In this document: positions 168 to 14,689 of the stretch, one piece after another
Position numbering within the stretch: position 1 is the first letter of the stretch
How the letters are laid out: each line of letters starts with the position of its first letter
Source of the DNA: Candidatus Hodarchaeota archaeon
Lineage (GTDB): Archaea > Asgardarchaeota > Heimdallarchaeia > Hodarchaeales > Hodarchaeaceae
NCBI GenBank assembly: GCA_029856365.1
Contig: JAHQWW010000087.1
Coordinates: 1-15,319 of the forward strand
Reading direction: 5' to 3'
DNA length: 15,319 nt
Made by a program: the position numbers and the translations under genes
Notes under the pieces: model-generated
What the model saw: the letters and a program-made list of their open reading frames with translations, nothing else
Database searches by the model: none
Told to the model about the DNA's origin: nothing

Positions 168-515
168 CATAACTTATGCCTACTAGTTAATTGGAAAATA
201 ATCAAAAAGAAAACTACCAAAGGCAATGAGGATTCAATTAAGGAAAAAAATAAAGAATTAGATGATATTAATTTTGTAGAATACATAGAAAGATGGCAAG
301 AGTCTCACAACATAAAGGTTGTTTATAAATTCATATTCCTCGTTATTCCCTTCGTTTTAAGCGGTCTTTTTTTTATCTATATGCTGACAGAAATGGGTAC
401 AATGACTCTTGAAGATACAATCGCTAATATTGTAGCCTTGTTCCCTAATTGCCATAGAAAGATGCATATTTTAAACAAACAAAAAGATGTATCAAGATTG
501 CAATCATTACACTAA
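168..515 (+). pseudogene. Chimeric remnant: membrane-protein-like fragment fused in frame to the C-terminus of an HNH endonuclease
   Basis: Stop-free frame 168-515 with first ATG at 381. It has a hydrophobic stretch (FIFLVIPFVLSGLFFIY), then EDTIANIVALFPNCHRKMHIL (from 411), which matches the HNH/McrA-type tail 'DT..N.VALCPNCHRxxH' with the first Cys replaced by Phe. Confidence 0.6.
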
Positions 516-521
516 TGATAA

Positions 522-560
522 TAATGTTGTCAATGGCTGGTTTAGATTCGAAAAGTATAT
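522..560 (+). repeat. Cassette-boundary repeat copy A (putative recombination site)
   Basis: TAATGTTGTC AAT GGCTGG TTTAG ATTCGAAAA GT ATAT. Matches the 5136 copy at 34/39 positions. Starts 6 bp after the HNH-remnant stop. Confidence 0.85.
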
Positions 561-774
561 ACCACGGTACGAGAAGATAATACTAAAGAATTGTGGAAAA
601 GAATCAGGGAAATAATGGCGCTTTCATAATCCTGTTTACAAAACTATATAGTTTCTGATGACTATCTTAATCCTGTGATTTATTCTGATTTACTCTCAAC
701 CTTGAGGTATTTTGTTAAGGTTCCCCCTGAAGATAACATTAATTAAAGAAAAAATGACGTACTTATGGAGGTAG

Positions 775-1407
775 AATCCATCGAAAATCGAACCGTTTGA
801 AAAATATACAGACCAATATGAAGATTGGTTTGAGACACATAAATTTGTTTATAAATCAGAGCTAAGGGCTATAAAAAATCAATTGCCTAAGAATGGAGAA
901 GGGATTGAAATCGGTGTGGGAAGCGGTAGATTTGCAGCGCCTTTAGGTATTAAATTTGGAATTGATCCATCTATAAAAATGAGACAAATAGCCCAAAGTA
1001 GGGGTATTGAAGTGATTAACGGTGTTGCAGAGAATTTACCTTTTAGGGACAATACTTTTACCTTTACACTGATGGTAACGACAATTTGCTTTTTAAATGA
1101 TATAAAAACCGCTTTTCAAGAAGCGCGCAGGGTGTTAAAGCCAAGAGGATGCTTAATAATAGGATTTATCGACAAAACTAGCACTATTGGAGAACTATAT
1201 CAAAAACATAAACAGGAGAATGTGTTCTATAATGTAGCAACGTTTTACTCAGTTGAGGATGTTGTTCTTCTCCTGAAAAAAATTGGTTTTAAGAACTTTC
1301 AGTACATTCAAACAATTTTTAATAATTTAAGCGAAATAAAAGATATTGAACCTATTAAAGAGGGTCACGGGGAAGGTTCATTTGTTGTAGTTAAAACATT
1401 CAAATAA
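775..1407 (+). CDS. Class I SAM-dependent methyltransferase (Methyltransf_11-like), canonical start codon apparently lost
   Basis: Motif I IEIGVGSGRF, AENLPF and VLKPRG are present. The frame is open from 775 and encodes a family-typical N-terminus (SKIEPFEKYTDQYEDWFETHKFVYKSEL) upstream of the track's TTG at 883. GGAGGT SD at 767-772. Confidence 0.9.
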   Translation, partial: NPSKIEPFEKYTDQYEDWFETHKFVYKSELRAIKNQLPKNGEGIEIGVGSGRFAAPLGIKFGIDPSIKMRQIAQSRGIEVINGVAENLPFRDNTFTFTLMVTTICFLNDIKTAFQEARRVLKPRGCLIIGFIDKTSTIGELYQKHKQENVFYNVATFYSVEDVVLLLKKIGFKNFQYIQTIFNNLSEIKDIEPIKEGHGEGSFVVVKTFK

Positions 1408-1530
1408 TGAATCCGAGAGCTATTTTTTCATTAAATGTTTTGTAGAATTAGGAGACTTGAATGAACAGCCAAATACTTGATTAATAGTTTTTTTGCCTCA
1501 TGTGTTTTGAAAAATATAGTTTTCAGGGAC

Positions 1531-1569
1531 AAACTTCGTTTATGGCTGGCTTTAATTGGAAAAGTATAT
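1531..1569 (+). repeat. Cassette-boundary repeat copy B
   Basis: AAACTTCGTT TAT GGCTGG CTTTA ATTGGAAAA GT ATAT. Ungapped 29/39 match to copy A. Lies downstream of the methyltransferase. Confidence 0.8.
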
Positions 1570-1750
1570 GCTTGATGTTTCTTCCCCGTATTTTAAGATA
1601 GGTTAGCAATTTTTTTACAGGATTGAATGAGTAGAATCATTTATGTAGATCTGGGATTTCATTTGTACGAATTCTTTTCCTAGCTATTTAAACTCCAGAT
1701 AGTAGATGAAAATTGACGCTAAAAGATTATAAAATTTTCAAGTGGTGTCG

Positions 1751-1775
1751 TTAAACCAGCCTAGGACAGACATCT
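1751..1775 (-). repeat. Cassette-boundary repeat copy G (minus strand)
   Basis: Reverse complement reads AGATGTCTGTC CTA GGCTGG TTTAA. Lies about 20 bp 3' of the minus-strand toxin gene, on the same strand as that gene. Confidence 0.7.
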
Positions 1776-1796
1776 GAATGTTTTAATGTGATAAAA

Positions 1797-2177
1797 TCAC
1801 AAACCAAATCGATAAATTTTACCAGACTGAATAATACTACATAAAAACTTGATATTATCTGAAGAGCTCCCCTTAAAAGGACTTTCAATAGCCTTTTCTT
1901 GATGTCGTGGATGAGTGTGATGTGGTTTAGAAGGTACTTCCCACTTATTATCAAAATTGTCGAATCTGATACGATCTAGCTTCTGAGAGGAGAACATCAC
2001 TATATAGGAATATTGTCCATAATTATTATACCGAATGAAGACTGTAGTTCCGCTTTTTAATTTAATTCTTAATTTACTAGTATCTTCGTCTAGATCAATC
2101 TCAGAAATAAAACCTCGTAATTCTTTGAGAATAATATCATATGCTTTAAGAATTAGATCCTCAGATAACAAGATCAT
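1797..2177 (-). CDS. TumE/DUF6516-like toxin of a type II TA pair
   Basis: YSY...IRFDN...PHHTH motif typical of DUF6516/TumE. ATG directly abuts the upstream gene's TGA (TGA-ATG). Confidence 0.7.
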   Translation of the reverse strand: MILLSEDLILKAYDIILKELRGFISEIDLDEDTSKLRIKLKSGTTVFIRYNNYGQYSYIVMFSSQKLDRIRFDNFDNKWEVPSKPHHTHPRHQEKAIESPFKGSSSDNIKFLCSIIQSGKIYRFGL

Positions 2178-2420
2178 TCACTGTAAGCCAAGCAACAGTT
2201 TTTCTATTTCATTTCGTTTATCACGTAAATTCTGTAGATCTATGGCATCGTCTTCAGCTTCAGGTAAGGTTCCAGTCTTTGCGCCATTGATAAATTCGTC
2301 AATTGAATTGGTATTCCATTTTTTGAGGATTTTTTCTATTTTCTCAGTTAGAACACGGAGTTTTGTTTCAATTAAGTCTCGAGCTGTTTCAGAATCTAAA
2401 GTAATGGACATAATGCTCAT
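2178..2420 (-). CDS. Small helical putative antitoxin (TumA-like position); start probably 2420 or 2411
   Basis: ~80-aa acidic/helical ORF directly upstream of, and abutting, the DUF6516-like gene. AGGA precedes the ATGs at 2420 and 2411. Confidence 0.65.
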   Translation of the reverse strand: MSIMSITLDSETARDLIETKLRVLTEKIEKILKKWNTNSIDEFINGAKTGTLPEAEDDAIDLQNLRDKRNEIEKLLLGLQ

Positions 2421-2512
2421 TCCTACAATAATAATATTCATTTTAAATGTTATCAATCTTTAGCTGTTTAACCCATTCTTCTATAAAAACACTTGTCCAA
2501 AAAGTGATAATA

Positions 2513-2690
2513 TTGGTTAAAAAACTAAAGCCATGGTTAGAATTGCACTTTATATTGCCTGAAGAAGACCCTGAAGAGCTAGAATTACATGAGTTTAAAC
2601 AAATAAGGAAAAAAATGGAAGAGGGAGAACGAACTCGTTAGAAAAAGGAATGAGTGATCAATTACTCAATTTTCTTACACTTTCTATTCT
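2513..2690 (+). pseudogene. Possible decayed antitoxin plus the first few codons of a RelE-like toxin
   Basis: From TTG 2513: VKKLKPWLELHFILPEEDPEELELHEFKQIRKKMEEGERTR, resembling archaeal antitoxin C-termini (EEEP.E.E...IR..M..GE). It is followed by ATGAGT and, in a shifted frame, NYSIFLH, like RelE N-termini, and then breaks off. Confidence 0.35.
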
Positions 2691-2715
2691 TTTGTGTTCC
2701 GTAAGATATCCTCTC

Positions 2716-2748
2716 TAAAGTCGTAAAAGGCTGGATTAACACTAAAAG
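2716..2748 (+). repeat. Cassette-boundary repeat copy E
   Basis: TAAAGTCGTA AAA GGCTGG ATTAA CACTAAAAG. Left arm and core are in the same register as copies A and C. Confidence 0.7.
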
Positions 2749-3257
2749 GCGAGAAAGAGATGAAAAGCAATCTAGACTTCAATAATTAAAGGTTAGTAGG
2801 TTTTGTTTCAAATAATATCCTAATGGTTCGAAAGACGAAAAAAGAAAAAATAGCAACTTTTGCACTAGCCTAATCTGTATAGACAAAACCACCAAATCTT
2901 CCTTCCTTCTTTTAAACTTTTAAGATTGGATCCAAGTTAATCTGAAGTTACTCATCAGTCGAGTTTTGTATTATTTAAAGTTCATAAGTTCAAATGTTTA
3001 AATATTCCTTTGTTTTAATAAAAATGTCCTTTAATAGTTCAATTTATAATATATTCATAAATTTCGTTAATAATGTTTATATAAAGCACGGTAAGACTTC
3101 CCAATGGCCAATCAACCGTTTTAATCTGAAGAAGCGTTGAAAATGTTTCTGTTAAAGACAGTAAATGAATATCAGATCAACTTAAACCTCTTCAATATCC
3201 TAAAAGGCTTGAGAAATTAACATGGATGTTGATTATAATTAAATGAAGTGATATAGA

Positions 3258-4202
3258 ATGACCCCTAAACAAAAAGAATTTGATGAATTTAATGAATCGA
3301 ATGATGAAATGCTACAATATTATCGTAATCAAAGTTCAATTACAGATCCAAGTATTTACTCAGATATTTATGAGGATCTACCCACAACTATTCCTGAACT
3401 GTGTAAAATTATTCAGAATGTTATAATTCATATTTTTTGGTTACAAGCATATGGAATGCGTCCTTCTGATTTAAAAGATCAAAAAAGAAACATCAATAAG
3501 GAATTGAATCAAAGATCTGTACATGAAAAATTATCAACGATATTTTCCCTCAAGGATGAGCCACTAACTGAAAGAAGGAAGCCAAATACCCGTGTTCTTG
3601 GTAATTGTCGGGATTATTCGGTACTTCTTGCATCCATTCTTCGATATAATGGAATTTCTGCAAGGGTACGGAGTGGGGTGTCGCGATACTTTTTTCCTCC
3701 TCCCAAAGATTTCCACGAGGATCACTTTATTTGTGAATATTGGCATCCTGACGACCATCGTTGGGTTATGGTTGATTCTCAAATTGATGAAATTCAGAAT
3801 AAAACAGTGAAAGTGAAAATCAATTTACACGATATCCCATCTGATCAATTTTTAAATGCGGGACATGCGTGGATTAAATTTAGAGAAGGAAAAGTAAAAC
3901 CAAAAAAAATTGGTTTATCTGGTAGTAAATGGTTAGGAGAACGCTTTTTAATAGATAAATTAATTCAGGATTTCGCCTGTTTAAATAAGGTAGAAGTTCT
4001 TGCCTGGGAAACGTGGGGTATTTGTGATCTGCAAAGAAAACTGAAACCAAACGAGTACGAAGAATTAGATAAGCTTGCTAGCAAAATCTCTTGTTTATCA
4101 GATACAAAAGTATTTGTAGATTTGAAAAATACGTTTAAACAAAATAATTTGTTTAAAATGCCAGAAAACTATAAACCGAGATTTGAAAAATTCTTTCCTT
4201 GA
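3258..4202 (+). CDS. Transglutaminase-like (Cys-His-Asp triad) domain protein
   Basis: GNCRDYS (Cys), GISARVRSG, DHFICEYW (His), WVMVDSQ (Asp). Confidence 0.9.
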   Translation: MTPKQKEFDEFNESNDEMLQYYRNQSSITDPSIYSDIYEDLPTTIPELCKIIQNVIIHIFWLQAYGMRPSDLKDQKRNINKELNQRSVHEKLSTIFSLKDEPLTERRKPNTRVLGNCRDYSVLLASILRYNGISARVRSGVSRYFFPPPKDFHEDHFICEYWHPDDHRWVMVDSQIDEIQNKTVKVKINLHDIPSDQFLNAGHAWIKFREGKVKPKKIGLSGSKWLGERFLIDKLIQDFACLNKVEVLAWETWGICDLQRKLKPNEYEELDKLASKISCLSDTKVFVDLKNTFKQNNLFKMPENYKPRFEKFFP

Positions 4203-4244
4203 TTATAAAAGCGAAATCTTGTCCTAAAAAATTAGTCAAAAAAC

Positions 4245-4281
4245 AAACGCCGTCTATGTCTGGTTAAATGGAAAAGATTAT
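4245..4281 (+). repeat. Cassette-boundary repeat copy F
   Basis: AAACGCCGTC TAT GTCTGG TTA AATGGAAAA GA TTAT, with a right arm 2 nt shorter. Starts 42 bp after the transglutaminase stop. Confidence 0.7.
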
Positions 4282-4363
4282 TCTCCTCAAAATGTAATGC
4301 AAAAGGATGATTTCAGGATATAAATTTCTGGAGACAAAGACAGAACAGCTTTCGGGAATAAAA

Positions 4364-4933
4364 ATGATAACAATTCCTACTCTCAAGACGACCCGTTTGA
4401 TTATTAGACCTTTGAATGAGAAAGACATAGACTTTCTTTTCAATCATTATAATCAAGAAGAAATTTCACGCTATACATTAATCTCCTTTAATTCTATTGA
4501 TGAGGTTAAAGCATTTTTAGGTCAATACACAGCAAAAAGTGATATGAGGAAATTCAAAGAAGGAATTGAATTGAGATCAACCCAGCAACTTATTGGAACA
4601 GTGACTTTCTTGAATTGGAGTAAGAAGGATCGTTGTGCTGAGATTGGTTATGACCTATCAAAAGAATATTGGGGAAAAGGGTTCATGTATGAAGCGCTCG
4701 AAGTTTTCATAAGATTTGGTTTTGAAGTAATGAATCTAAATCGAATTGAAGCCACTACGAATGTTAGAAATGAAAGATCAAGAAAAGTATTAACTCGATT
4801 AGGTTTTATACAAGAAGGGATCTTACGCCAAAAATATCGTTTTAGGGGAAAATTTTCTGATGAAATTATCTTTTCTATATTGAGAGAAGAATGGGAGACG
4901 AGAGGCATTCAAGGAATGCAGGATAAATCATAA
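4364..4933 (+). CDS. GNAT N-acetyltransferase, RimJ/RimL family (ORF track start 4307; 4364 more likely)
   Basis: PTLKTTRLIIRPL N-terminus, AEIGYDLSKEYWGKGFM acetyl-CoA motif, NERSRKVLTRLGFIQEG. Confidence 0.92.
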   Translation: MITIPTLKTTRLIIRPLNEKDIDFLFNHYNQEEISRYTLISFNSIDEVKAFLGQYTAKSDMRKFKEGIELRSTQQLIGTVTFLNWSKKDRCAEIGYDLSKEYWGKGFMYEALEVFIRFGFEVMNLNRIEATTNVRNERSRKVLTRLGFIQEGILRQKYRFRGKFSDEIIFSILREEWETRGIQGMQDKS

Positions 4934-5135
4934 TATTATTTTCAAACTTTTTCTATATAGAGAGAGAGAACGAGCCTTTTTTTCAACTTTAGGAACTTTT
5001 TTAAAGTGAAAAAAGTAAACTAGAAGTATTTCGATAGGGATTTGGGTAAAAAATATCAGGGGAGCTAAGCAAATGATCTCTGAATCTGATAACCTGAATT
5101 AATATTGTCAAAATTGAACATTTTTACTTATATTC

Positions 5136-5174
5136 TAATGTTGTCTAAGGCTGGTTTAGATAGGAAAAATATAT
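5136..5174 (+). repeat. Cassette-boundary repeat copy C
   Basis: TAATGTTGTC TAA GGCTGG TTTAG ATAGGAAAA AT ATAT. Matches copy A at 34/39 positions. Confidence 0.85.
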
Positions 5175-5274
5175 CCTTTGGTATTTATGATACCATATGG
5201 CAACACGGGGATTTGCCATAGTAATACAATTAATAAATCTATTATTGCTTTTATTATGGTAGGAGAAATAAAGC

Positions 5275-5979
5275 ATGGATGATAAGATCCATAAAGAAAT
5301 GATGTGCTACTATCATGAGAGAGCAGAGGAATACGATGAACTATATAAAGGAATAATTGGAAGGACACGTCACGTTACCATTAACCCGCAAGTCTATCGA
5401 CAGGATATAGCTAAAACTTCTGAAATGGTTGCAAGGTTTGGCACTGGATCGTTAATTGATATCGGGTGTGGATCTGGTTTTTGGTTTCTGTATTATGCAC
5501 GAAATTGTAGTAGGATAACAATGCTCGATCAATCGAAAAAAATGCTTCAAGAAAGCTCAAAAAAAGTTGAACAATTAGGATTAGAAGAGTCGGTCAATTT
5601 TATTCAAGGAGATTTTTTCAGAATACCTCTAGGACTCTCAATATTTGATTGTGCTTTGATTGGGTTTCTTTTAAGCCATTTTACCGTAAAACAAGAAGAA
5701 ACATTCTTTTTAAAACTCCAGAGAATTCTAAAGCCAAATGGTAAACTGCTATTTATCGATAGTGCTTGGAATAAGGAACGACAAAAGCATAGAAAGAAAG
5801 AAGGAGTCCAAGAGAGAGTTTTGAACGATGGTCGAGTATTTCAAATATATAAACGATATTTTGACAGATTGGATGTTGAGAAAATGTTTCAGAGATATAA
5901 TTTTGAAATAAAATCTCTTTATATTGGAAAAGCAATGATTTCAATCATCGCAGAGTATTTTCATCAAAAAATTGCATAA
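5275..5979 (+). CDS. Class I SAM-dependent methyltransferase
   Basis: YY.ERAEEYD N-terminus, LIDIGCGSGFW motif I, LDQS..ML, FIQGD, ILKPNGKLLFID. Confidence 0.92.
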   Translation: MDDKIHKEMMCYYHERAEEYDELYKGIIGRTRHVTINPQVYRQDIAKTSEMVARFGTGSLIDIGCGSGFWFLYYARNCSRITMLDQSKKMLQESSKKVEQLGLEESVNFIQGDFFRIPLGLSIFDCALIGFLLSHFTVKQEETFFLKLQRILKPNGKLLFIDSAWNKERQKHRKKEGVQERVLNDGRVFQIYKRYFDRLDVEKMFQRYNFEIKSLYIGKAMISIIAEYFHQKIA

Positions 5980-6072
5980 AAGATGTATATTGAGATTCCT
6001 TCATATCTATTATATTGTCTCATAGAGGATTGCATGAGAAGCAATGTTGGTCATAATACTGGAGCAAATCTG

Positions 6073-6091
6073 ATATGTCGTCGATGGCTGG
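6073..6091 (+). repeat. Cassette-boundary repeat copy D (left half and core only)
   Basis: ATATGTCGTC GAT GGCTGG, then unrelated sequence. Lies ~93 bp after the methyltransferase stop. Confidence 0.7.
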
Positions 6092-6179
6092 AAAGGGGAA
6101 TCTTTTGGTAGGTCAACTTTTAACAAGAATTTATAAAGAAGTGACGCATTCCTATCCATTGGACTCCTGTGTGAACAGA

Positions 6180-6814: not shown

Positions 6815-7110
6815 AAAGAACATATAAAGATTATATCAATGATATCACAGCTGCAATAACTAATATCTCTGAATTCATAAAGGATATGGATTATGACGAT
6901 TTTATTAAAGATAGAAAAACTGAATTTGCGGTAATTCGAGCATTAGAAATCATTGGTGAAGCAACAAAGAATATTCCAGAATCTATTCGAGATAAGCATC
7001 CAGAAAATTCCTTGGAAATCAATGGCTGGGAAGCCATGGGATAAACTTTTCGTCCTCGACCTCAATTCTCTAGGAGAAAGGGTGAACGAGGATTCCCGCT
7101 CCCTATGGCT
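6811..7110 (+). pseudogene. hepT: HepT (DUF86/HEPN) toxin, frameshifted and lacking the RxxxxH motif
   Basis: DYINDI...AVIRALEIIGEATKNIP..R.KHPE, then an extra A in the run at ~7004-7007 moves IPWKSMAG into another frame. The expected MRDKLIHxY is replaced by KPWDKLFVL. Confidence 0.85.
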
Positions 7111-8199: not shown

Positions 8200-9858
8200 T
8201 TGATTCATTTTAATAAACAAAGAGGAATTAGGATGTTTGTCCAGAATAATACGACTAAGAGAACGTTTAAATTTAATAAGGCCAATACTCGAATAATAAT
8301 AGCTTTTTTTCACATCAATATTCTGTTTTGGGGTTTTTTTATTATGCTAAATTCATTTTTTTTAGTGAGCAATTTGTCACCAGTCTCGGCAAGCTTATTT
8401 CCGAGACAAGAGGTGGGTTTTATTGGTGAAGCGGAACAGGATAAAGCAGGTATGTCTCTTTCAGATGTAGGAGATGTAAATAATGATGACTATGATGATT
8501 TCATAATAGGAGCTTCCTCAAATGATGAAGGCGGGGTTGAAGCAGGGCAGACATATCTCATATTAGGAAGGCCTGGCAACAAATGGAAGGAAGAATACAG
8601 TCTCTCAGAATCAAATGCTTCTTTTATTGGGGAAAATGGTCTGGACTTTTCTGGATGGAGCGTTTCAGGAGCGGGAGACGTAAATAGCGATGGTTACAAT
8701 GACTTCGTCATAGGAGCACCAGGATTTTATATTGGAGAAGCACAATTAGGGCAAGTATATCTTATTCTTGGTCGACCAGGTGATAAATGGAGCATGGATA
8801 CTACACTTTCACTGGCAAATGCTTCTTTCATAGGTGAGCATGAGGATCTCATGGTGGGGAGCCATGTTGCTGGAGTAGGAGATGTAAATAATGATGGGTA
8901 TGATGATTTTGCTATTGGAGGTGGAAATACTACTTACGTTATTTTTGGAAAAGAAACAAATGAATGGACAATGGATGTTTCACTTATAAATGCAGATCGA
9001 TTCATTATTGCAGGATCAAATGTTTTCGGAGTGGGAGATGTGAATAATGATAATTATCACGATCTTGCTATTGGTATACCTAGTGATGATGATGGGGGTG
9101 TTGATGCTGGGCAAACGTTTCTTTTTTTCGGCAGAGCAACCAGTGAATGGGATACCTGGATATTCAGAAATGAAGCAGATGCCTCATTTATAGGTGAGGT
9201 AGCAGATGACTATTCCGGTCTCTCAGTGTCTCGTTTAGGCGATGTAAATAGTGATGATTATGACGATCTCCTAATTGGAGCACCTTGGAATGATGAAGGA
9301 GGGGCGATTGCAGGTCAAACATATCTAATACTTGGTCGTGCAACCAATAAGTGGGAATTTGGAGCTTCTCTATTAGACGCAAATGCATCATTTATTGGGG
9401 AAGCTGCGTCAGACGAATCTGGTTGGGGAATTTCAGGAGTTGATGATGTGAATAATGATGGGCTTTCAGATTTCGTTATAGGGGCATTTGGAAATGAGGA
9501 TAGTGCTCATTACGCAGGAAAAACATATCTCCTCCTTGGCAAACCTACTGGACAATGGATCATGGACACTTCCCTCTCAACAGCTGATCTCTCAATGGTC
9601 GGAGAAGCCTTTGGAGATCATTTAGGTATAAAAGTCTCAGGTGCCAAGGATGTAGATAATGATGGATTTGATGAGTTTCTTGTAGTAGCCTATTTCAACG
9701 ATCAGGGTGGTGTGGATGCAGGAAAGGTATATTTGATACTTCATCCATTTTATGAGTGCACAACCATAATTCAAACAACTCCTATTTCATTTACGCCAAT
9801 TCTAGTAGTACTATGTCTGGTTGTCCAAATATCGTATTTTAAAAAGAGAAAAAGCTGA
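8200..9858 (+). CDS. Membrane-anchored FG-GAP / integrin-alpha-like seven-repeat beta-propeller surface protein
   Basis: Seven DVxxDxxxDxxxG-type repeats with GAP and GQTYLILG motifs, an N-terminal hydrophobic segment, and a C-terminal Thr-rich linker + TM helix + KKRKS tail. Confidence 0.92.
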   Translation: MIHFNKQRGIRMFVQNNTTKRTFKFNKANTRIIIAFFHINILFWGFFIMLNSFFLVSNLSPVSASLFPRQEVGFIGEAEQDKAGMSLSDVGDVNNDDYDDFIIGASSNDEGGVEAGQTYLILGRPGNKWKEEYSLSESNASFIGENGLDFSGWSVSGAGDVNSDGYNDFVIGAPGFYIGEAQLGQVYLILGRPGDKWSMDTTLSLANASFIGEHEDLMVGSHVAGVGDVNNDGYDDFAIGGGNTTYVIFGKETNEWTMDVSLINADRFIIAGSNVFGVGDVNNDNYHDLAIGIPSDDDGGVDAGQTFLFFGRATSEWDTWIFRNEADASFIGEVADDYSGLSVSRLGDVNSDDYDDLLIGAPWNDEGGAIAGQTYLILGRATNKWEFGASLLDANASFIGEAASDESGWGISGVDDVNNDGLSDFVIGAFGNEDSAHYAGKTYLLLGKPTGQWIMDTSLSTADLSMVGEAFGDHLGIKVSGAKDVDNDGFDEFLVVAYFNDQGGVDAGKVYLILHPFYECTTIIQTTPISFTPILVVLCLVVQISYFKKRKS

Positions 9859-10708: not shown

Positions 10709-12172
10709 ATGGGATTTTCAAAACAATCTCTCTATTTAGAGACTGTCGGTACCATTTCAGAAGAGATAAGTCATGAATTCATTGCTGAGCTCTTAGACTA
10801 TCTATACATAATAAAAATCCATGCTACAGCAAAGGTCAAGGAAATTCCATATATATGTAAAAAATTGTTTAAGGATTACACAAAACCCTTTTGCGACAAA
10901 TATTCATTTTTAACAAACATTCAAATGTATCCAAGAGATACTAGAAGAAATTACTCTTTCGTCCTCACTTATTCAGGAACAAAAATTATCCTCCCTTATA
11001 ATATGTTAGCCTTTGAAGCACTAAATCCCAAGAACACCATTCTAGATCAATTGAAGTGTTCAAATAATGTAGAATCATTTTTTTTCACTTTAAGTAAGTT
11101 TTTTCATGATTTAAATTTGCCATTAGTCAAAAATGACATCAAAATTATTAAATTCTTAATGGATCCAATAATCCGAAATGAGATACCCTCCATCCCGACA
11201 AACAGGCAAATAGCAACGTCACTGGATGTTAGTGAAAATACTATTTCAAGAAGACTTAATCAATTATATTGTAATTCCATCCTTTGCCACACTTACCGTG
11301 TAGATATAGCTAAATTAGGATATTATACCTCTACAATTATTCATATTGATAATCTAGACATCCTACCTCCGATTTTTAAGCCATACTGCCTTGTCGATGT
11401 TTTACTCGACTGGGGAGAATTTATGGCAAAAATGAAAATCCTTCAAATTCCTTCAACTCAGAAAAGTGTTTTTTGTGAAATTAAAGACTATTTTGAACCT
11501 CTCTATGAAGTAACACTAACCAAAAACTACATAGGATGGAATTTGAACAGTTTAACTTCTAAAACAGAAGAGAGGTGGCAAAATTTACCTCCAATATTCC
11601 TGTGTGATAAGTGGACTGATCACCAATTTTCAGGAAAATTAGGTGTTGAGCAAAATCTAATTTCCAATAAAAATACTTTCAAAATTACTACTACACAAGC
11701 AAGGATGCTTGATCTTATTCAAAATGGGACAATAATGTCAAAAAGATATCTTAGCAAAAAATTAAATATAGGTCAAAAATACATCAAACAATTTTTCGAT
11801 GAATTTTTCCTAAAAAGGCTCATCAAACGATTTTCTATTCTTTCAAATATAGGTCTCGGATCTAAAGTTTGGATTACATTACTGGGACCAAGGTCAAATA
11901 GTGGTATAGACCTACTCAATAATATTATCAAACATTTGAAATTCTTCCCTTTTACTTACTTATTTTACAATGATAATAACCTTGATTCAAGGGGAAGGAT
12001 TTTACTCACTGGACTTCTTTGCATGCCTTCATCTTGGTATGATGATCTCTATAATGTCTGGTTTGATCTACTAGAAGAGGGGTTCGTACCAAAAATCAAC
12101 ATCAACCAGGGTAATGTTAAATGGGGAATAGATTTAGAACAGACTTATGATTTTTCTGCTTACATTTCTTAG
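10709..12172 (+). CDS. Large regulator-like protein with two winged-HTH (Lrp/AsnC-like) modules
   Basis: PTNRQIATSLDVSENTISRRLNQL...VDIAKLGY and RMLDLIQNG..SKRYLSKKLNIG...LSNIGL. Confidence 0.75.
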   Translation: MGFSKQSLYLETVGTISEEISHEFIAELLDYLYIIKIHATAKVKEIPYICKKLFKDYTKPFCDKYSFLTNIQMYPRDTRRNYSFVLTYSGTKIILPYNMLAFEALNPKNTILDQLKCSNNVESFFFTLSKFFHDLNLPLVKNDIKIIKFLMDPIIRNEIPSIPTNRQIATSLDVSENTISRRLNQLYCNSILCHTYRVDIAKLGYYTSTIIHIDNLDILPPIFKPYCLVDVLLDWGEFMAKMKILQIPSTQKSVFCEIKDYFEPLYEVTLTKNYIGWNLNSLTSKTEERWQNLPPIFLCDKWTDHQFSGKLGVEQNLISNKNTFKITTTQARMLDLIQNGTIMSKRYLSKKLNIGQKYIKQFFDEFFLKRLIKRFSILSNIGLGSKVWITLLGPRSNSGIDLLNNIIKHLKFFPFTYLFYNDNNLDSRGRILLTGLLCMPSSWYDDLYNVWFDLLEEGFVPKININQGNVKWGIDLEQTYDFSAYIS

Positions 12173-13285: not shown

Positions 13286-14689
13286 TTGAAAGAAGATTTA
13301 GGTAAAAATGTATTACTTCTACATGCGCCAATCGCTCAATACACATTTGGGAAAAAATGGAGAGCGACTAAAGGCTTATCTCCCCCCCTTGGATTACTCT
13401 ATCTTGGCTCTCCACTACTAAAAGTAGGTTATAACGTAAAATTTGTGGATTTAAATGTTGATAAATTATCAAGGAAGGAATTTTTGAAAATTATTGAAGC
13501 CCAAGACTTCATCTTAATAACCTGCTATACTCTTACAATAAATAATGTGAAAAAAATTATCCAAGATATCAAGGAGGTGAATAACAAAGGAGTCATTCTG
13601 TGTGGCGGGCCTCACTGTAATATTACTCAAGAGTATATTGAAGGTTCTTTCATTACCTGTATTGGAGAAGTGGAAGGATATATTGTACAAATCCTCCATT
13701 TAATTGAGACAAAAAAACCTTTAGAAGTTATTCCTGGATTAATTTATAAGAAAGATGGGGAATTGGTTAAAAATACGGGTGTCATGAAAATAAATAATTT
13801 GGATTCTAGTATATTCCCTGCTTGGGAGTTATTAGACAAGAAAAAATACGGATACATTGGTAATGCTCAACTAGATCTCGCGTGGATCATGAGTACACGG
13901 GGGTGTCCTTTTAATTGTTATTTTTGTGCTCGTATGTTATATAGTAAATACCGTGAAAGAAGTGTCGATAATGTAGTTGCGGAGTTAAAATCTCTAGTAA
14001 AACAAGGTTACAAGTATATTGCTTTTGGTGATGACAATTTCTTACTTAATAAAAATAGGGTTCATGAGATTATGGAGAGAATTATCTTAGAAAAGATAAA
14101 TATCAAGATGGCTGTTCAAGGAAGAGTTGACTCGGCTGATTTTAATATGTTTCAGAAAATGCGAAAAGCAGGGGTCATTGCAATATTTTTTGGAATTGAA
14201 AGCGCTAATCAGGATGTACTTGACTTTTATAACAAGAAAACGACAGTAGAGCAAGGAATCGAAGCAATAAAAACAGCTAATCAAGCAGGTTTAATAACAA
14301 TAGGATTTTTCATAATAGGAGCTCCGTTTGAAACAGATAAACACATTAAACAAAATTTGGAATATTTCAATAGCGTACCTCTAGATTTAATTAGTTGCTA
14401 CGATTTAACATATGTGGTAGGGACAAAGCTATGGAAAAATGCTGTTAAAAAAGGAATAATTGAAAAATCAGAACTTTTTGTCCGTGCTGATAAAAAAACA
14501 TCCAATTATTCATCAGAAGAAATATCAGAAATTAAGAATGATTTAATTAAACATTTTTATAAAAATCCCCACAGATTACTAAGGGTTCTATACAAGGCTT
14601 TACGCCTTGGTGAACTAGGTCTTATTTACAAAGGACTTCTGAATGTTGGCGCAATATTATCGAAAATGCGTGGATTTACTACCGTTTGA
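13286..14689 (+). CDS. B12-binding radical SAM protein (class B methyltransferase-like)
   Basis: PPLGLLYL, GGPH, GEVE in the B12-binding region; STRGCPFNCYFC (CxxxCxxC); DDNF; GIES; FIIGAPFET. GAGGGG SD before the TTG. Confidence 0.95.
   Translation: MKEDLGKNVLLLHAPIAQYTFGKKWRATKGLSPPLGLLYLGSPLLKVGYNVKFVDLNVDKLSRKEFLKIIEAQDFILITCYTLTINNVKKIIQDIKEVNNKGVILCGGPHCNITQEYIEGSFITCIGEVEGYIVQILHLIETKKPLEVIPGLIYKKDGELVKNTGVMKINNLDSSIFPAWELLDKKKYGYIGNAQLDLAWIMSTRGCPFNCYFCARMLYSKYRERSVDNVVAELKSLVKQGYKYIAFGDDNFLLNKNRVHEIMERIILEKINIKMAVQGRVDSADFNMFQKMRKAGVIAIFFGIESANQDVLDFYNKKTTVEQGIEAIKTANQAGLITIGFFIIGAPFETDKHIKQNLEYFNSVPLDLISCYDLTYVVGTKLWKNAVKKGIIEKSELFVRADKKTSNYSSEEISEIKNDLIKHFYKNPHRLLRVLYKALRLGELGLIYKGLLNVGAILSKMRGFTTV

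What the first reader, a model, noticed from the sequence alone, without database searches (positions are those of the whole stretch)
522..6091. Candidate novel gene-cassette array delimited by a ~39-bp non-attC repeat
Seen: seven copies (522, 1531, 1751 minus, 2716, 4245, 5136, 6073) of approx. TAATGTyGTC-wAw-GGCTGG-tTTAr-ATwGGAAAA-rT-ATAT. Each is intergenic, lies 6-200 bp 3' of a module and follows the strand of the preceding gene. Copies A and C, 4.6 kb apart, match 34/39. Established: methyltransferases, GNATs, TA pairs and nuclease remnants are typical cargo of integron cassettes and of XerC/D pdif modules. The repeat lacks the attC RYYYAAC...GTTRRRY hairpin. Copies B and G lie in a convergent intergenic region upstream of no gene, which argues against a promoter or operator. 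Inference: these are recombination sites of a possibly undescribed archaeal gene-capture or shuffling system whose recombinase is encoded elsewhere.
Basis: partly seen in the sequence, partly recalled or inferred. Interest (0 to 1): 0.92.

Follow-up and report, generated by a model that had tools for sequence, protein, structure and literature searches.

The report
Xer-type gene cassette arrays in Hodarchaeum
In this Asgard archaeon, small packets of genes are strung together at a repeated 28-letter DNA joint where they have been swapped between species, and several clues point to the cell's own chromosome-untangling enzyme XerA, not an integron integrase, as the enzyme that does the swapping.

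Summary
The repeat is real. It is a 28-bp site: an 11-bp left arm, a GGCTGG spacer and an 11-bp right arm, not a uniform 39-mer. It occurs in co-oriented arrays in 19 of 21 other Ca. Hodarchaeum genomes and in 0 of 279 other Asgard genomes. Homologous modules change neighbours at the site (25 one-sided pairs against 3 two-sided), and the left arm travels with the upstream module. It is not an attC, and no array has an integrase beside it. Evidence for XerA: (i) the left arm matches bacterial XerC arms (8.1/11, control 4.3); (ii) it lies 19-32 bp upstream of xerA in 17 of 19 genomes, in both orientations (background 6/1591 genes); (iii) this XerA has the XerC-type xRx motif; (iv) it forms dispersed arm-N6-arm palindromes, and no Pyrococcus-type dif is conserved. 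An ISH3-like IS inserts exactly 5 bp from the arm. The minus-strand copy is a second junction class with an inverted spacer. XerA catalysis is inferred, not shown, and no circles were seen. The scan found these arrays before in two other genomes (e1-5455508, e1-5671377). The xerA-upstream arm, palindromes, IS targeting and second class are not in the excerpts shown.

The parts
524..551 (+). Site A, class 1: left arm 524-534, spacer GGCTGG 535-540, TTTAGAT-type right arm 541-551, followed by the AAAAGTATATAC tail
   Evidence: score 32.6; a mangrove contig joins here with different upstream DNA (X7 record 25)
1533..1560 (+). Site B, class 1 (degenerate): arm 1533-1543, spacer 1544-1549, right arm 1550-1560, with tail
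   Evidence: score 19.3; 97% match of the methyltransferase module to L016 stops at 1533
1745..1772 (+).
   Evidence: same junction in L019 with another upstream module; X7 record 27 ends at 1761; 29 class-2 sites in all
2718..2745 (+). Site D, class 1: arm 2718-2728, spacer 2729-2734, ATTAACA-type right arm
   Evidence: score 33.3; homology to L019 ends 11 bp past the core and the neighbour differs; loose contig ends at 2720, 2742, 2747
4247..4274 (+). Site E, class 1 (degenerate): spacer GTCTGG here, GGCTGG in near-identical contig L122
   Evidence: score 16.3
5138..5165 (+). Site F, class 1: arm 5138-5148, spacer 5149-5154, TTTAGAT-type right arm with tail
   Evidence: score 31.2; downstream DNA shared with C99 and, by its first ORF, with L243 behind different upstream DNA
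6075..6102 (+). Site G: good left arm and spacer (6086-6091), non-consensus right arm
   Evidence: homology to L015 begins at 6086, and L015 has its own left arm there
7024..7029 (+). Lone GGCTGG at which the HepT gene is cut off; possible off-target crossover marking the array's right end
   Evidence: homology to the intact gene ends at 7029-7034 in L032 and L077; post hoc, one case
276..512 (+). Cargo: broken HNH nuclease remnant ending just before site A
   Evidence: weak PF01844 hit, E 0.003, below cut-off; stops in all frames
883..1407 (+). Cargo: SAM methyltransferase (module A-B)
   Evidence: PF08241; 97% identical copy among other neighbours in G007
1797..2456 (-). Cargo: TumE-family toxin (1797-2177) and putative antitoxin (2178-2456), module C'-D
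   Evidence: PF20126; whole module 89% identical in L019 with other neighbours on both sides
3258..4202 (+). Cargo: transglutaminase-like protein (module D-E)
   Evidence: PF01841
4307..4933 (+). Cargo: GNAT acetyltransferase (module E-F)
   Evidence: PF13302; 93% copy in L015 without sites at its ends
5275..5979 (+). Cargo: SAM methyltransferase (module F-G)
   Evidence: PF08241; an ORF with the same N-terminus lies between two sites in G011, L243
6219..7044 (+). Cargo: two minimal nucleotidyltransferases and a broken HepT RNase after site G
   Evidence: PF01909, PF18765, PF01934; homologues in arrays of G007 and G013

Best explanation
The repeat is a double-stranded tyrosine-recombinase site of Xer/dif geometry (11-bp arm, 6-bp spacer, 11-bp arm). 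It delimits mobile gene modules (median 1.4 kb) in chromosomal arrays of Ca. Hodarchaeum. SHOWN: sites are module junctions, exchange falls at the spacer, and neighbouring sites are directly repeated with one shared spacer. INFERRED: the host's housekeeping XerA binds the XerC-like left arm strongly and the divergent right arm weakly. Recombination between two directly repeated GGCTGG sites excises a module as a circle, and recombination of that circle with any GGCTGG site inserts it elsewhere. The weak right arm would keep excision rare. The same arm, as a half-site before xerA and as palindromes with non-matching spacers, would be XerA binding sites that cannot recombine with the arrays. Class-2 junctions (arm, CCAGCC, anything) are best read as products of recombination between a symmetrical arm-GGCTGG-arm site, seen at some array ends, and a weak spacer-only site; this could be how new DNA is captured (speculative). 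I put about 0.9 on a recombinase-driven cassette array and about 0.65 on XerA being the enzyme or one of the enzymes.
For: Clustering and genus restriction. 91 of 93 neighbouring class-1 sites co-oriented. 25 site pairs share one flank only, 3 share both. Left-arm identity 0.96 when the upstream flank is shared, 0.62 when the downstream flank is shared, 0.63 in unrelated pairs (only 8 and 10 pairs). Spacer GGCTGG in 179/216 array sites, free in dispersed palindromes. Left arm against Acinetobacter XerC arms of PMC10132070 Table 4: 8.1/11, control 4.3. Arm 19-32 bp upstream of xerA in 17/19 genomes, 9 forward and 8 reverse, arm identity 0.94/0.88 against flanks 0.39-0.53; background 6/1591 ORFs. 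XerA passes NF040815 (282 > 220), fails the IntI model (175 < 265), and its best PDB match is P. abyssi XerA. xRx key motif, XerC-type per PMC2958812, in all 21 copies (motif placed by alignment). The XerA orthologue is the only recombinase found in nearly all genus genomes. No conserved Pyrococcus-type dif (16 hits, 14 in control). dif-like sites upstream of xerA operons are known in haloarchaea (PMC11840125).
Against: No binding or recombination assay exists, and no circle or back-joint was seen (contigs only). The right arm is unlike both the left arm and XerD arms (4.0/11) yet its WTTA start is over 95% conserved, which could mean a second protein. The 17 xerA-upstream arms fall into two lineages by orientation, so they are not 17 independent events. 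G001 and G016 have XerA and palindromes but no upstream arm and only one weak array hit each. A half-site before xerA fits a regulator of xerA equally well. Directly repeated XerA sites should be unstable without a control that I did not identify. The matrix was trained on GGCTGG sites, so spacer conservation is partly built in. An arm-only scan still gave GGCTGG (136) and CCAGCC (24) as the top hexamers after 451 arms, but in loci mostly fetched for the motif.
Confidence: 0.62

Rival explanations
1. The arrays are real, but the recombinase is another tyrosine recombinase acting in trans: the patchy family encoded next to a small upstream gene (Int2), or an unidentified partner that binds the right arm, as XerD partners XerC.
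For: Left arms lie next to several Int2 operons (L136, L138, L139, L142, L144), and one Int2 element is bracketed by two sites with similar spacers. The conserved right arm starts WTTA, like an IntI R box.
Against: Int2 was found in about 10 of 21 genomes and is very divergent. It is absent from the window's genome except for fragments (genome 84% complete), and only one of ten copies has a class-1-like site nearby.
Confidence: 0.2
2. The arm is recognised by a DDE transposase (the ISH3-like IS) or by a non-recombinase protein such as the coiled-coil winged-helix protein upstream of xerA, and modules move by targeted transposition.
For: The IS inserts exactly 5 bp from the arm (24 of 36 end flanks score at offset 5, none at other offsets). 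Its terminal repeat contains an arm-like ACTTCGYA. The wHTH gene is syntenic with xerA.
Against: Module ends are not inverted repeats and do not start CAGT. The IS makes a 4-bp duplication inside the spacer, which modules lack. IS ends were found in 12 of 22 genomes and not in six array-bearing ones. A fixed asymmetric spacer is not expected of target duplications.
Confidence: 0.08
3. A CALIN: an integron cassette array with atypical attC sites, served by an IntI in trans.
For: Array layout and cargo resemble integrons. Integrons are enriched in Asgard MAGs (PMC9668308). One genome has a frameshifted IntI-like frame (G002:C77).
Against: No hairpin (mean z 0 to -0.3, like control flanks), and only 16 of 216 sites have a canonical R box near the spacer. 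No IntI passes the cut-off in five array-rich genomes. The IntI-like contig carries none of these sites. Cargo is not co-oriented.
Confidence: 0.04
4. The motif is only a transcription-factor operator or promoter carried by accessory genes.
For: One right-arm type carries a BRE/TATA-like tail. Palindromic versions with free spacers exist, and one arm precedes xerA.
Against: Breakpoints fall at the spacer and the two arms are inherited separately. Orientation follows the array, not the genes. 11 of 30 palindromes lie inside ORFs or between convergent genes. Modules of 63-73 bp, too short for a gene, exist.
Confidence: 0.03

Closest known systems
pdif/dif modules of Acinetobacter, moved by host XerC/XerD (PMC13141974, PMC12907356, PMC10132070)
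   Same: 11-6-11 sites, XerC-like arm, crossover in matching spacers, no recombinase in the array, TA and empty modules as cargo, IS elements that hunt the sites
   Different: pdif sites alternate in orientation (C and D modules), have a conserved XerD arm and varied spacers, and lie mostly on plasmids. Here sites are directly repeated with one genus-wide spacer, the right arm is not XerD-like, and the host has a single archaeal XerA.
IMEX (CTXphi, TLCphi, gonococcal island; PMC5357621)
   Same: use of host Xer; one arm and the spacer conserved, the other arm divergent; tandem accumulation
   Different: IMEX are phages or islands inserted at the chromosomal dif. Here the units are 1-3 gene modules at several loci with no replication or transfer genes seen, and no FtsK or XafT equivalent was identified.
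Integrons and CALINs, including archaeal ones (PMC9668308)
   Same: tandem, directly repeated junction sites; one or a few accessory genes per unit; shuffling between genomes
   Different: no attC hairpin or R boxes, no IntI, cargo in both orientations, a sequence-specific rather than structure-specific site
Archaeal XerA/dif (PMC2958812, PMC8371274) and bacterial XDS sites (cited in PMC11840125)
   Same: single XerA, symmetrical 11-6-11 sites, sites near xerA in some archaea; several dispersed dif-like sites as for XDS
   Different: arm sequence differs from Thermococcales dif; there are several palindromes per genome with different spacers, plus many asymmetric copies in arrays
IS1202-family dif-site hunters (PMC10132070)
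   Same: an IS inserted at a fixed 5-bp distance from a XerC-type arm
   Different: here an ISH3-like DDE transposase (below the family cut-off) with CAGT ends and a 4-bp duplication, inserting inside the spacer in either orientation rather than outside the C arm

Membership tests
Integron / CALIN | attC with R''/R' boxes folding as a single-strand hairpin | tested here: not met
   folding z about 0; 16/216 sites with a canonical box nearby. IntegronFinder itself could not be run.
Integron / CALIN | IntI (tyrosine recombinase with the IntI insertion) adjacent or in trans | tested here: not met
   none over cut-off in five genomes; one frameshifted IntI-like frame in G002 on a contig without these sites
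Integron / CALIN | tandem directly repeated sites delimiting exchangeable units | tested here: met
pdif/dif modules | 11-6-11 site with a XerC-type arm | tested here: met
   8.1/11 against 4.3 control
pdif/dif modules | conserved XerD arm (TTATGTTAAAT) | tested here: not met
   4.0/11
pdif/dif modules | inversely oriented sites with alternating C and D modules | tested here: not met
   91/93 class-1 neighbours direct; class-2 arms point the same way in 25/28
pdif/dif modules | crossover within matching spacers | tested here: met
   (comparative, small numbers)
Xer-dependent element (IMEX or dif module) | catalysis by the host Xer recombinase | not testable with these tools
   indirect only:
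IMEX | insertion at the chromosomal dimer-resolution dif | tested here: inconclusive
   the true dif is unidentified; arrays occur at several loci; the best-conserved palindrome (C157:4373) has another spacer and no array
Archaeal XerA (for gene G000:C92, L001) | NF040815 score over cut-off and intact R-K-H-R-H-Y residues | tested here: met
IS or MITE end | terminal inverted repeats with target duplication | tested here: not met
   module ends are unlike each other; the IS found in the sites has its own distinct ends

The most novel reading that the evidence does not exclude
Hodarchaeum has turned its housekeeping XerA into an integron-like gene-capture system without a dedicated integrase. 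A symmetrical arm-GGCTGG-arm master site captures DNA at spacer-only secondary sites (leaving class-2 junctions), and directly repeated asymmetric sites then let XerA excise and reshuffle the modules. XerA controls its own gene through a half-site, and a separate IS lineage has evolved to hunt XerA sites.
Probability: 0.4. Interest if true: 0.9.

Novelty: new variant of a known kind. Interest (0 to 1): 0.8.

Why it matters
Hodarchaeum belongs to the Asgard group widely placed close to eukaryotes (own knowledge), and how Asgard archaea acquire their accessory genes is an open question. A cassette system run by the host XerA would be a route invisible to attC-based integron searches. I found no archaeal Xer-module system in the papers searched. 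The finding also names a probable XerA binding sequence for the genus and yields an immediate test: one 291-aa protein and a 28-bp site.

Tried and rejected
Rfam: no match in the window. Viral contigs: 25 single hits, about what chance gives by my estimate. Recombinase beside array ends: none in the loci read; G009 looked complete but is contigs joined by 100-N gaps. Serine and IS110 recombinases: patchy and on other contigs. My first palindrome pattern was too loose and equal to control; the tighter one worked. The arm alone is not enriched genome-wide (40 against 66 reversed); it is informative only in context. 'The arm before xerA is just a coding N-terminus': rejected, since most copies are out of frame, lack the ATG or are on the reverse strand. 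SOS-like regulon: the six other genes with an upstream arm show no repair theme. Pyrococcus-type dif (lead from e1-5685565): present once at C116 but not conserved. The 15027 match from the repeat finder scores as noise. No joint between sites and no circle in four runs of contigs, which cannot show rare molecules. A resemblance of the arm to the loxP arm was noticed from memory and not tested. Literature searches found no description of this system; the library is incomplete.
Full report
OBSERVATION. All seven copies are present, and 522 and 5136 match 34/39. A matrix seeded on them and retrained on copies from relatives finds 14 sites scoring 20 or more in the 4.24-Mb genome and none in the reversed genome. 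They lie on C109 (the window), C47, C97, C99, C100, C120 and C176. An exact-pattern search of named genomes returns mostly Hodarchaeota/Heimdallarchaeota MAGs, including Ca. Hodarchaeum mangrovi. The motif is in 19 of 21 other genomes of the genus and 0 of 19 outside it; a stricter pattern is in 0 of 279 other Asgard genomes.

ANATOMY. From 216 unique sites the unit is a left arm, A[CT][GT][TC]CGT[CA]AA[AT], a spacer GGCTGG (179/216), and a right arm that begins WTTA. The right arm comes in two types: TTTAGAT with a tail AAAAGTATATAC (113 sites) and ATTA[AG]CA (81 sites). Left and right types combine freely. This is the 11-6-11 geometry of dif (PMC8371274). The left arm matches the XerC arms of Acinetobacter pdif sites (PMC10132070) at 8.1/11 against 4.3 for flanking DNA; the right arm does not match XerD arms (4.0/11). 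There is no attC hairpin. Neighbouring class-1 sites are co-oriented in 91 of 93 cases, modules have a median of 1.4 kb, and cargo ORFs face either way, 82 against 70.

THE SITES ARE JUNCTIONS (shown by comparison). Among site pairs with homologous flanks, 14 share only the upstream side, 11 only the downstream side and 3 both. The left arm is 96% identical when the upstream module is shared and at background (62%) when the downstream one is; the right side follows the downstream module. This places exchange at the spacer, on 8 and 10 pairs. In the window, the TA module 1746-2742 recurs in G007 with other neighbours on both sides, the methyltransferase match ends at site B, and the match after site G starts at the first base of its spacer. 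Contigs from independent studies break at sites A, C' and D. Not every shared gene is bounded by sites: the GNAT copy in L015 is not.

A SECOND JUNCTION CLASS. The minus-strand copy reads arm-CCAGCC-anything on the array strand. There are 29 such sites with a very tight arm; in 25 of 28 the arm points the same way as the nearest class-1 site. They too are breakpoints (5 one-sided pairs, none two-sided), and one module end occurs before either spacer polarity (C47:2869 and L018:8730). Symmetrical arm-GGCTGG-arm sites occur at or near some array ends (L160; L008, split by an IS). Recombination of such a site with a weak spacer-only site would give these products; that reading is inference. The HepT gene in the window is cut at a lone GGCTGG (7024-7029), which fits an off-target event but is a single post hoc case.

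WHICH RECOMBINASE. No recombinase lies beside any array read. The window's genome has one intact tyrosine recombinase (C92). It passes the archaeal XerA model, fails the IntI model and is closest to P. abyssi XerA among solved structures; orthologues occur across the genus. A strong left arm lies 19-32 bp upstream of this gene in 17 of 19 genus genomes examined, forward in 9 and reverse in 8, and is far better conserved than its flanks; only 6 of 1591 other ORFs have one so placed. The reverse-orientation copies form one clade, so this is two lineages rather than 17 trials; G001 and G016 lack the arm. All 21 XerA copies carry the XerC-type xRx key motif rather than the xKx of Thermococcales XerA (PMC2958812), which agrees with a XerC-like arm. 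The arm also forms arm-N6-arm palindromes: 5 strong ones in this genome against 0 in the control, and in 17 of 21 relatives against 0 of 39 outsiders. They have free spacers and lie in genes, between convergent genes and elsewhere, which suits a chromosome-binding protein better than a transcription factor. One, in C157, is kept at the orthologous locus in at least G005, G011, G020 and G021 and is a dif candidate. No Pyrococcus-type dif is conserved in the genus. Precedents: dif-like sites upstream of xerA operons in haloarchaea and dispersed XDS sites of XerD (PMC11840125), and difSL beside xerS (PMC5357621). XerA binding and catalysis remain inferred.

A SITE-HUNTING IS. An ISH3-like DDE element with CAGTACTTCG ends and its 80-bp MITE sit inside the spacer with a 4-bp duplication. 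Of 36 distinct end flanks, 24 have an arm ending exactly 5 bp from the IS and none at any other offset. This parallels IS1202-family dif hunters (PMC10132070). It shows the arm is a recognised feature, but the transposase may read the DNA itself, since its terminal repeat resembles the arm.

COMPARISON AND VERDICT. It works like an integron in layout and like pdif modules and IMEX in site chemistry, and it fails a defining test of integrons (attC, IntI) and of pdif modules (XerD arm, alternating orientation). I found no description in the papers searched. The scan reported the same arrays before in two other Hodarchaeum genomes, and a first-reader note on this window guessed a XerA-like enzyme. 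I had reached the Xer reading before these look-ups. The xerA-upstream arm, the palindromes, the IS targeting and the class-2 junctions were found and tested here and are not in the excerpts shown. Verdict: observation confirmed; recombinase-driven cassette array about 0.9; XerA as the enzyme about 0.65; new variant of a known kind; interest 0.8.

Noticed in passing
L008:11960-13255 (G002:C84); L015:9507-9586; G000 C18:3541 and C204:123608: ISH3-like IS and an 80-bp MITE with CAGTACTTCG ends that insert inside the 6-bp spacer, 5 bp from the arm; ends found in 12 of 22 genus genomes.
   Followed up: yes
L001:527-1039 (G000:C92): A 170-aa coiled-coil and winged-helix protein directly upstream of xerA in nearly all genus loci read; a candidate accessory factor or alternative binder of the arm.
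   Followed up: partly
L135-L144: Two-gene modules (a small putative DNA-binding protein plus a divergent tyrosine recombinase) at varied loci in about 10 genomes, several with a left arm just upstream; L136 is bracketed by two sites with similar spacers.
   Followed up: partly
L237:6991-9382 (G002:C77): An IntI-like domain fused at the end of a 773-aa frame and frameshifted near its C-terminus, followed by what looks like an IS21-type gene pair; no sites of this system on the contig.
   Followed up: partly
G000 C157:4373-4404: An arm-N6-arm palindrome inside a coiled-coil ORF, kept at the orthologous locus in several relatives even where the spacer changes or the ORF ends before it; candidate chromosomal dif.
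   Followed up: partly
L010:1282-1355, L245:7252-7315, L247:12661-12734: Empty modules of 63-73 bp made of little more than the TTTAGAT right arm with its tail and a left arm; possibly promoter-only cassettes.
   Followed up: no
window 552-563, 1561-1571, 5166-5175 and 113 sites in relatives: The TTTAGAT right-arm type carries an AAAAGTATATAC tail, often followed by a second GTATATAC; it resembles an archaeal BRE/TATA box or a palindromic accessory site.
   Followed up: partly
L004:9360-17900 and G000 C127:6857: A palindromic site lies just downstream of a gene that looks like valS in two genomes, between it and an array or accessory block; a possible anchoring locus.
   Followed up: no
L018-L019, L241-L242 (G007:C63:8700-72700): Two long arrays of opposite orientation face each other over about 65 kb.
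   Followed up: no
window 8200-9858 +: FG-GAP (integrin-alpha type) repeat protein with seven repeats at a 204-bp period; paralogues on C18 and C100.
   Followed up: partly
window 13286-14689 +: B12-binding radical SAM protein; the 487-aa ORF at 10709-12172 has no Pfam match.
   Followed up: no
window 765-883: The methyltransferase frame appears to extend about 100 bp upstream of 883 behind a GGAGGT without an in-frame ATG (read by eye); L016 gives the same short ORF call.
   Followed up: no
L183, L186 (G001, G016): These sister genomes have XerA and five palindromes each but no arm before xerA and almost no array sites; a natural contrast for the model.
   Followed up: partly
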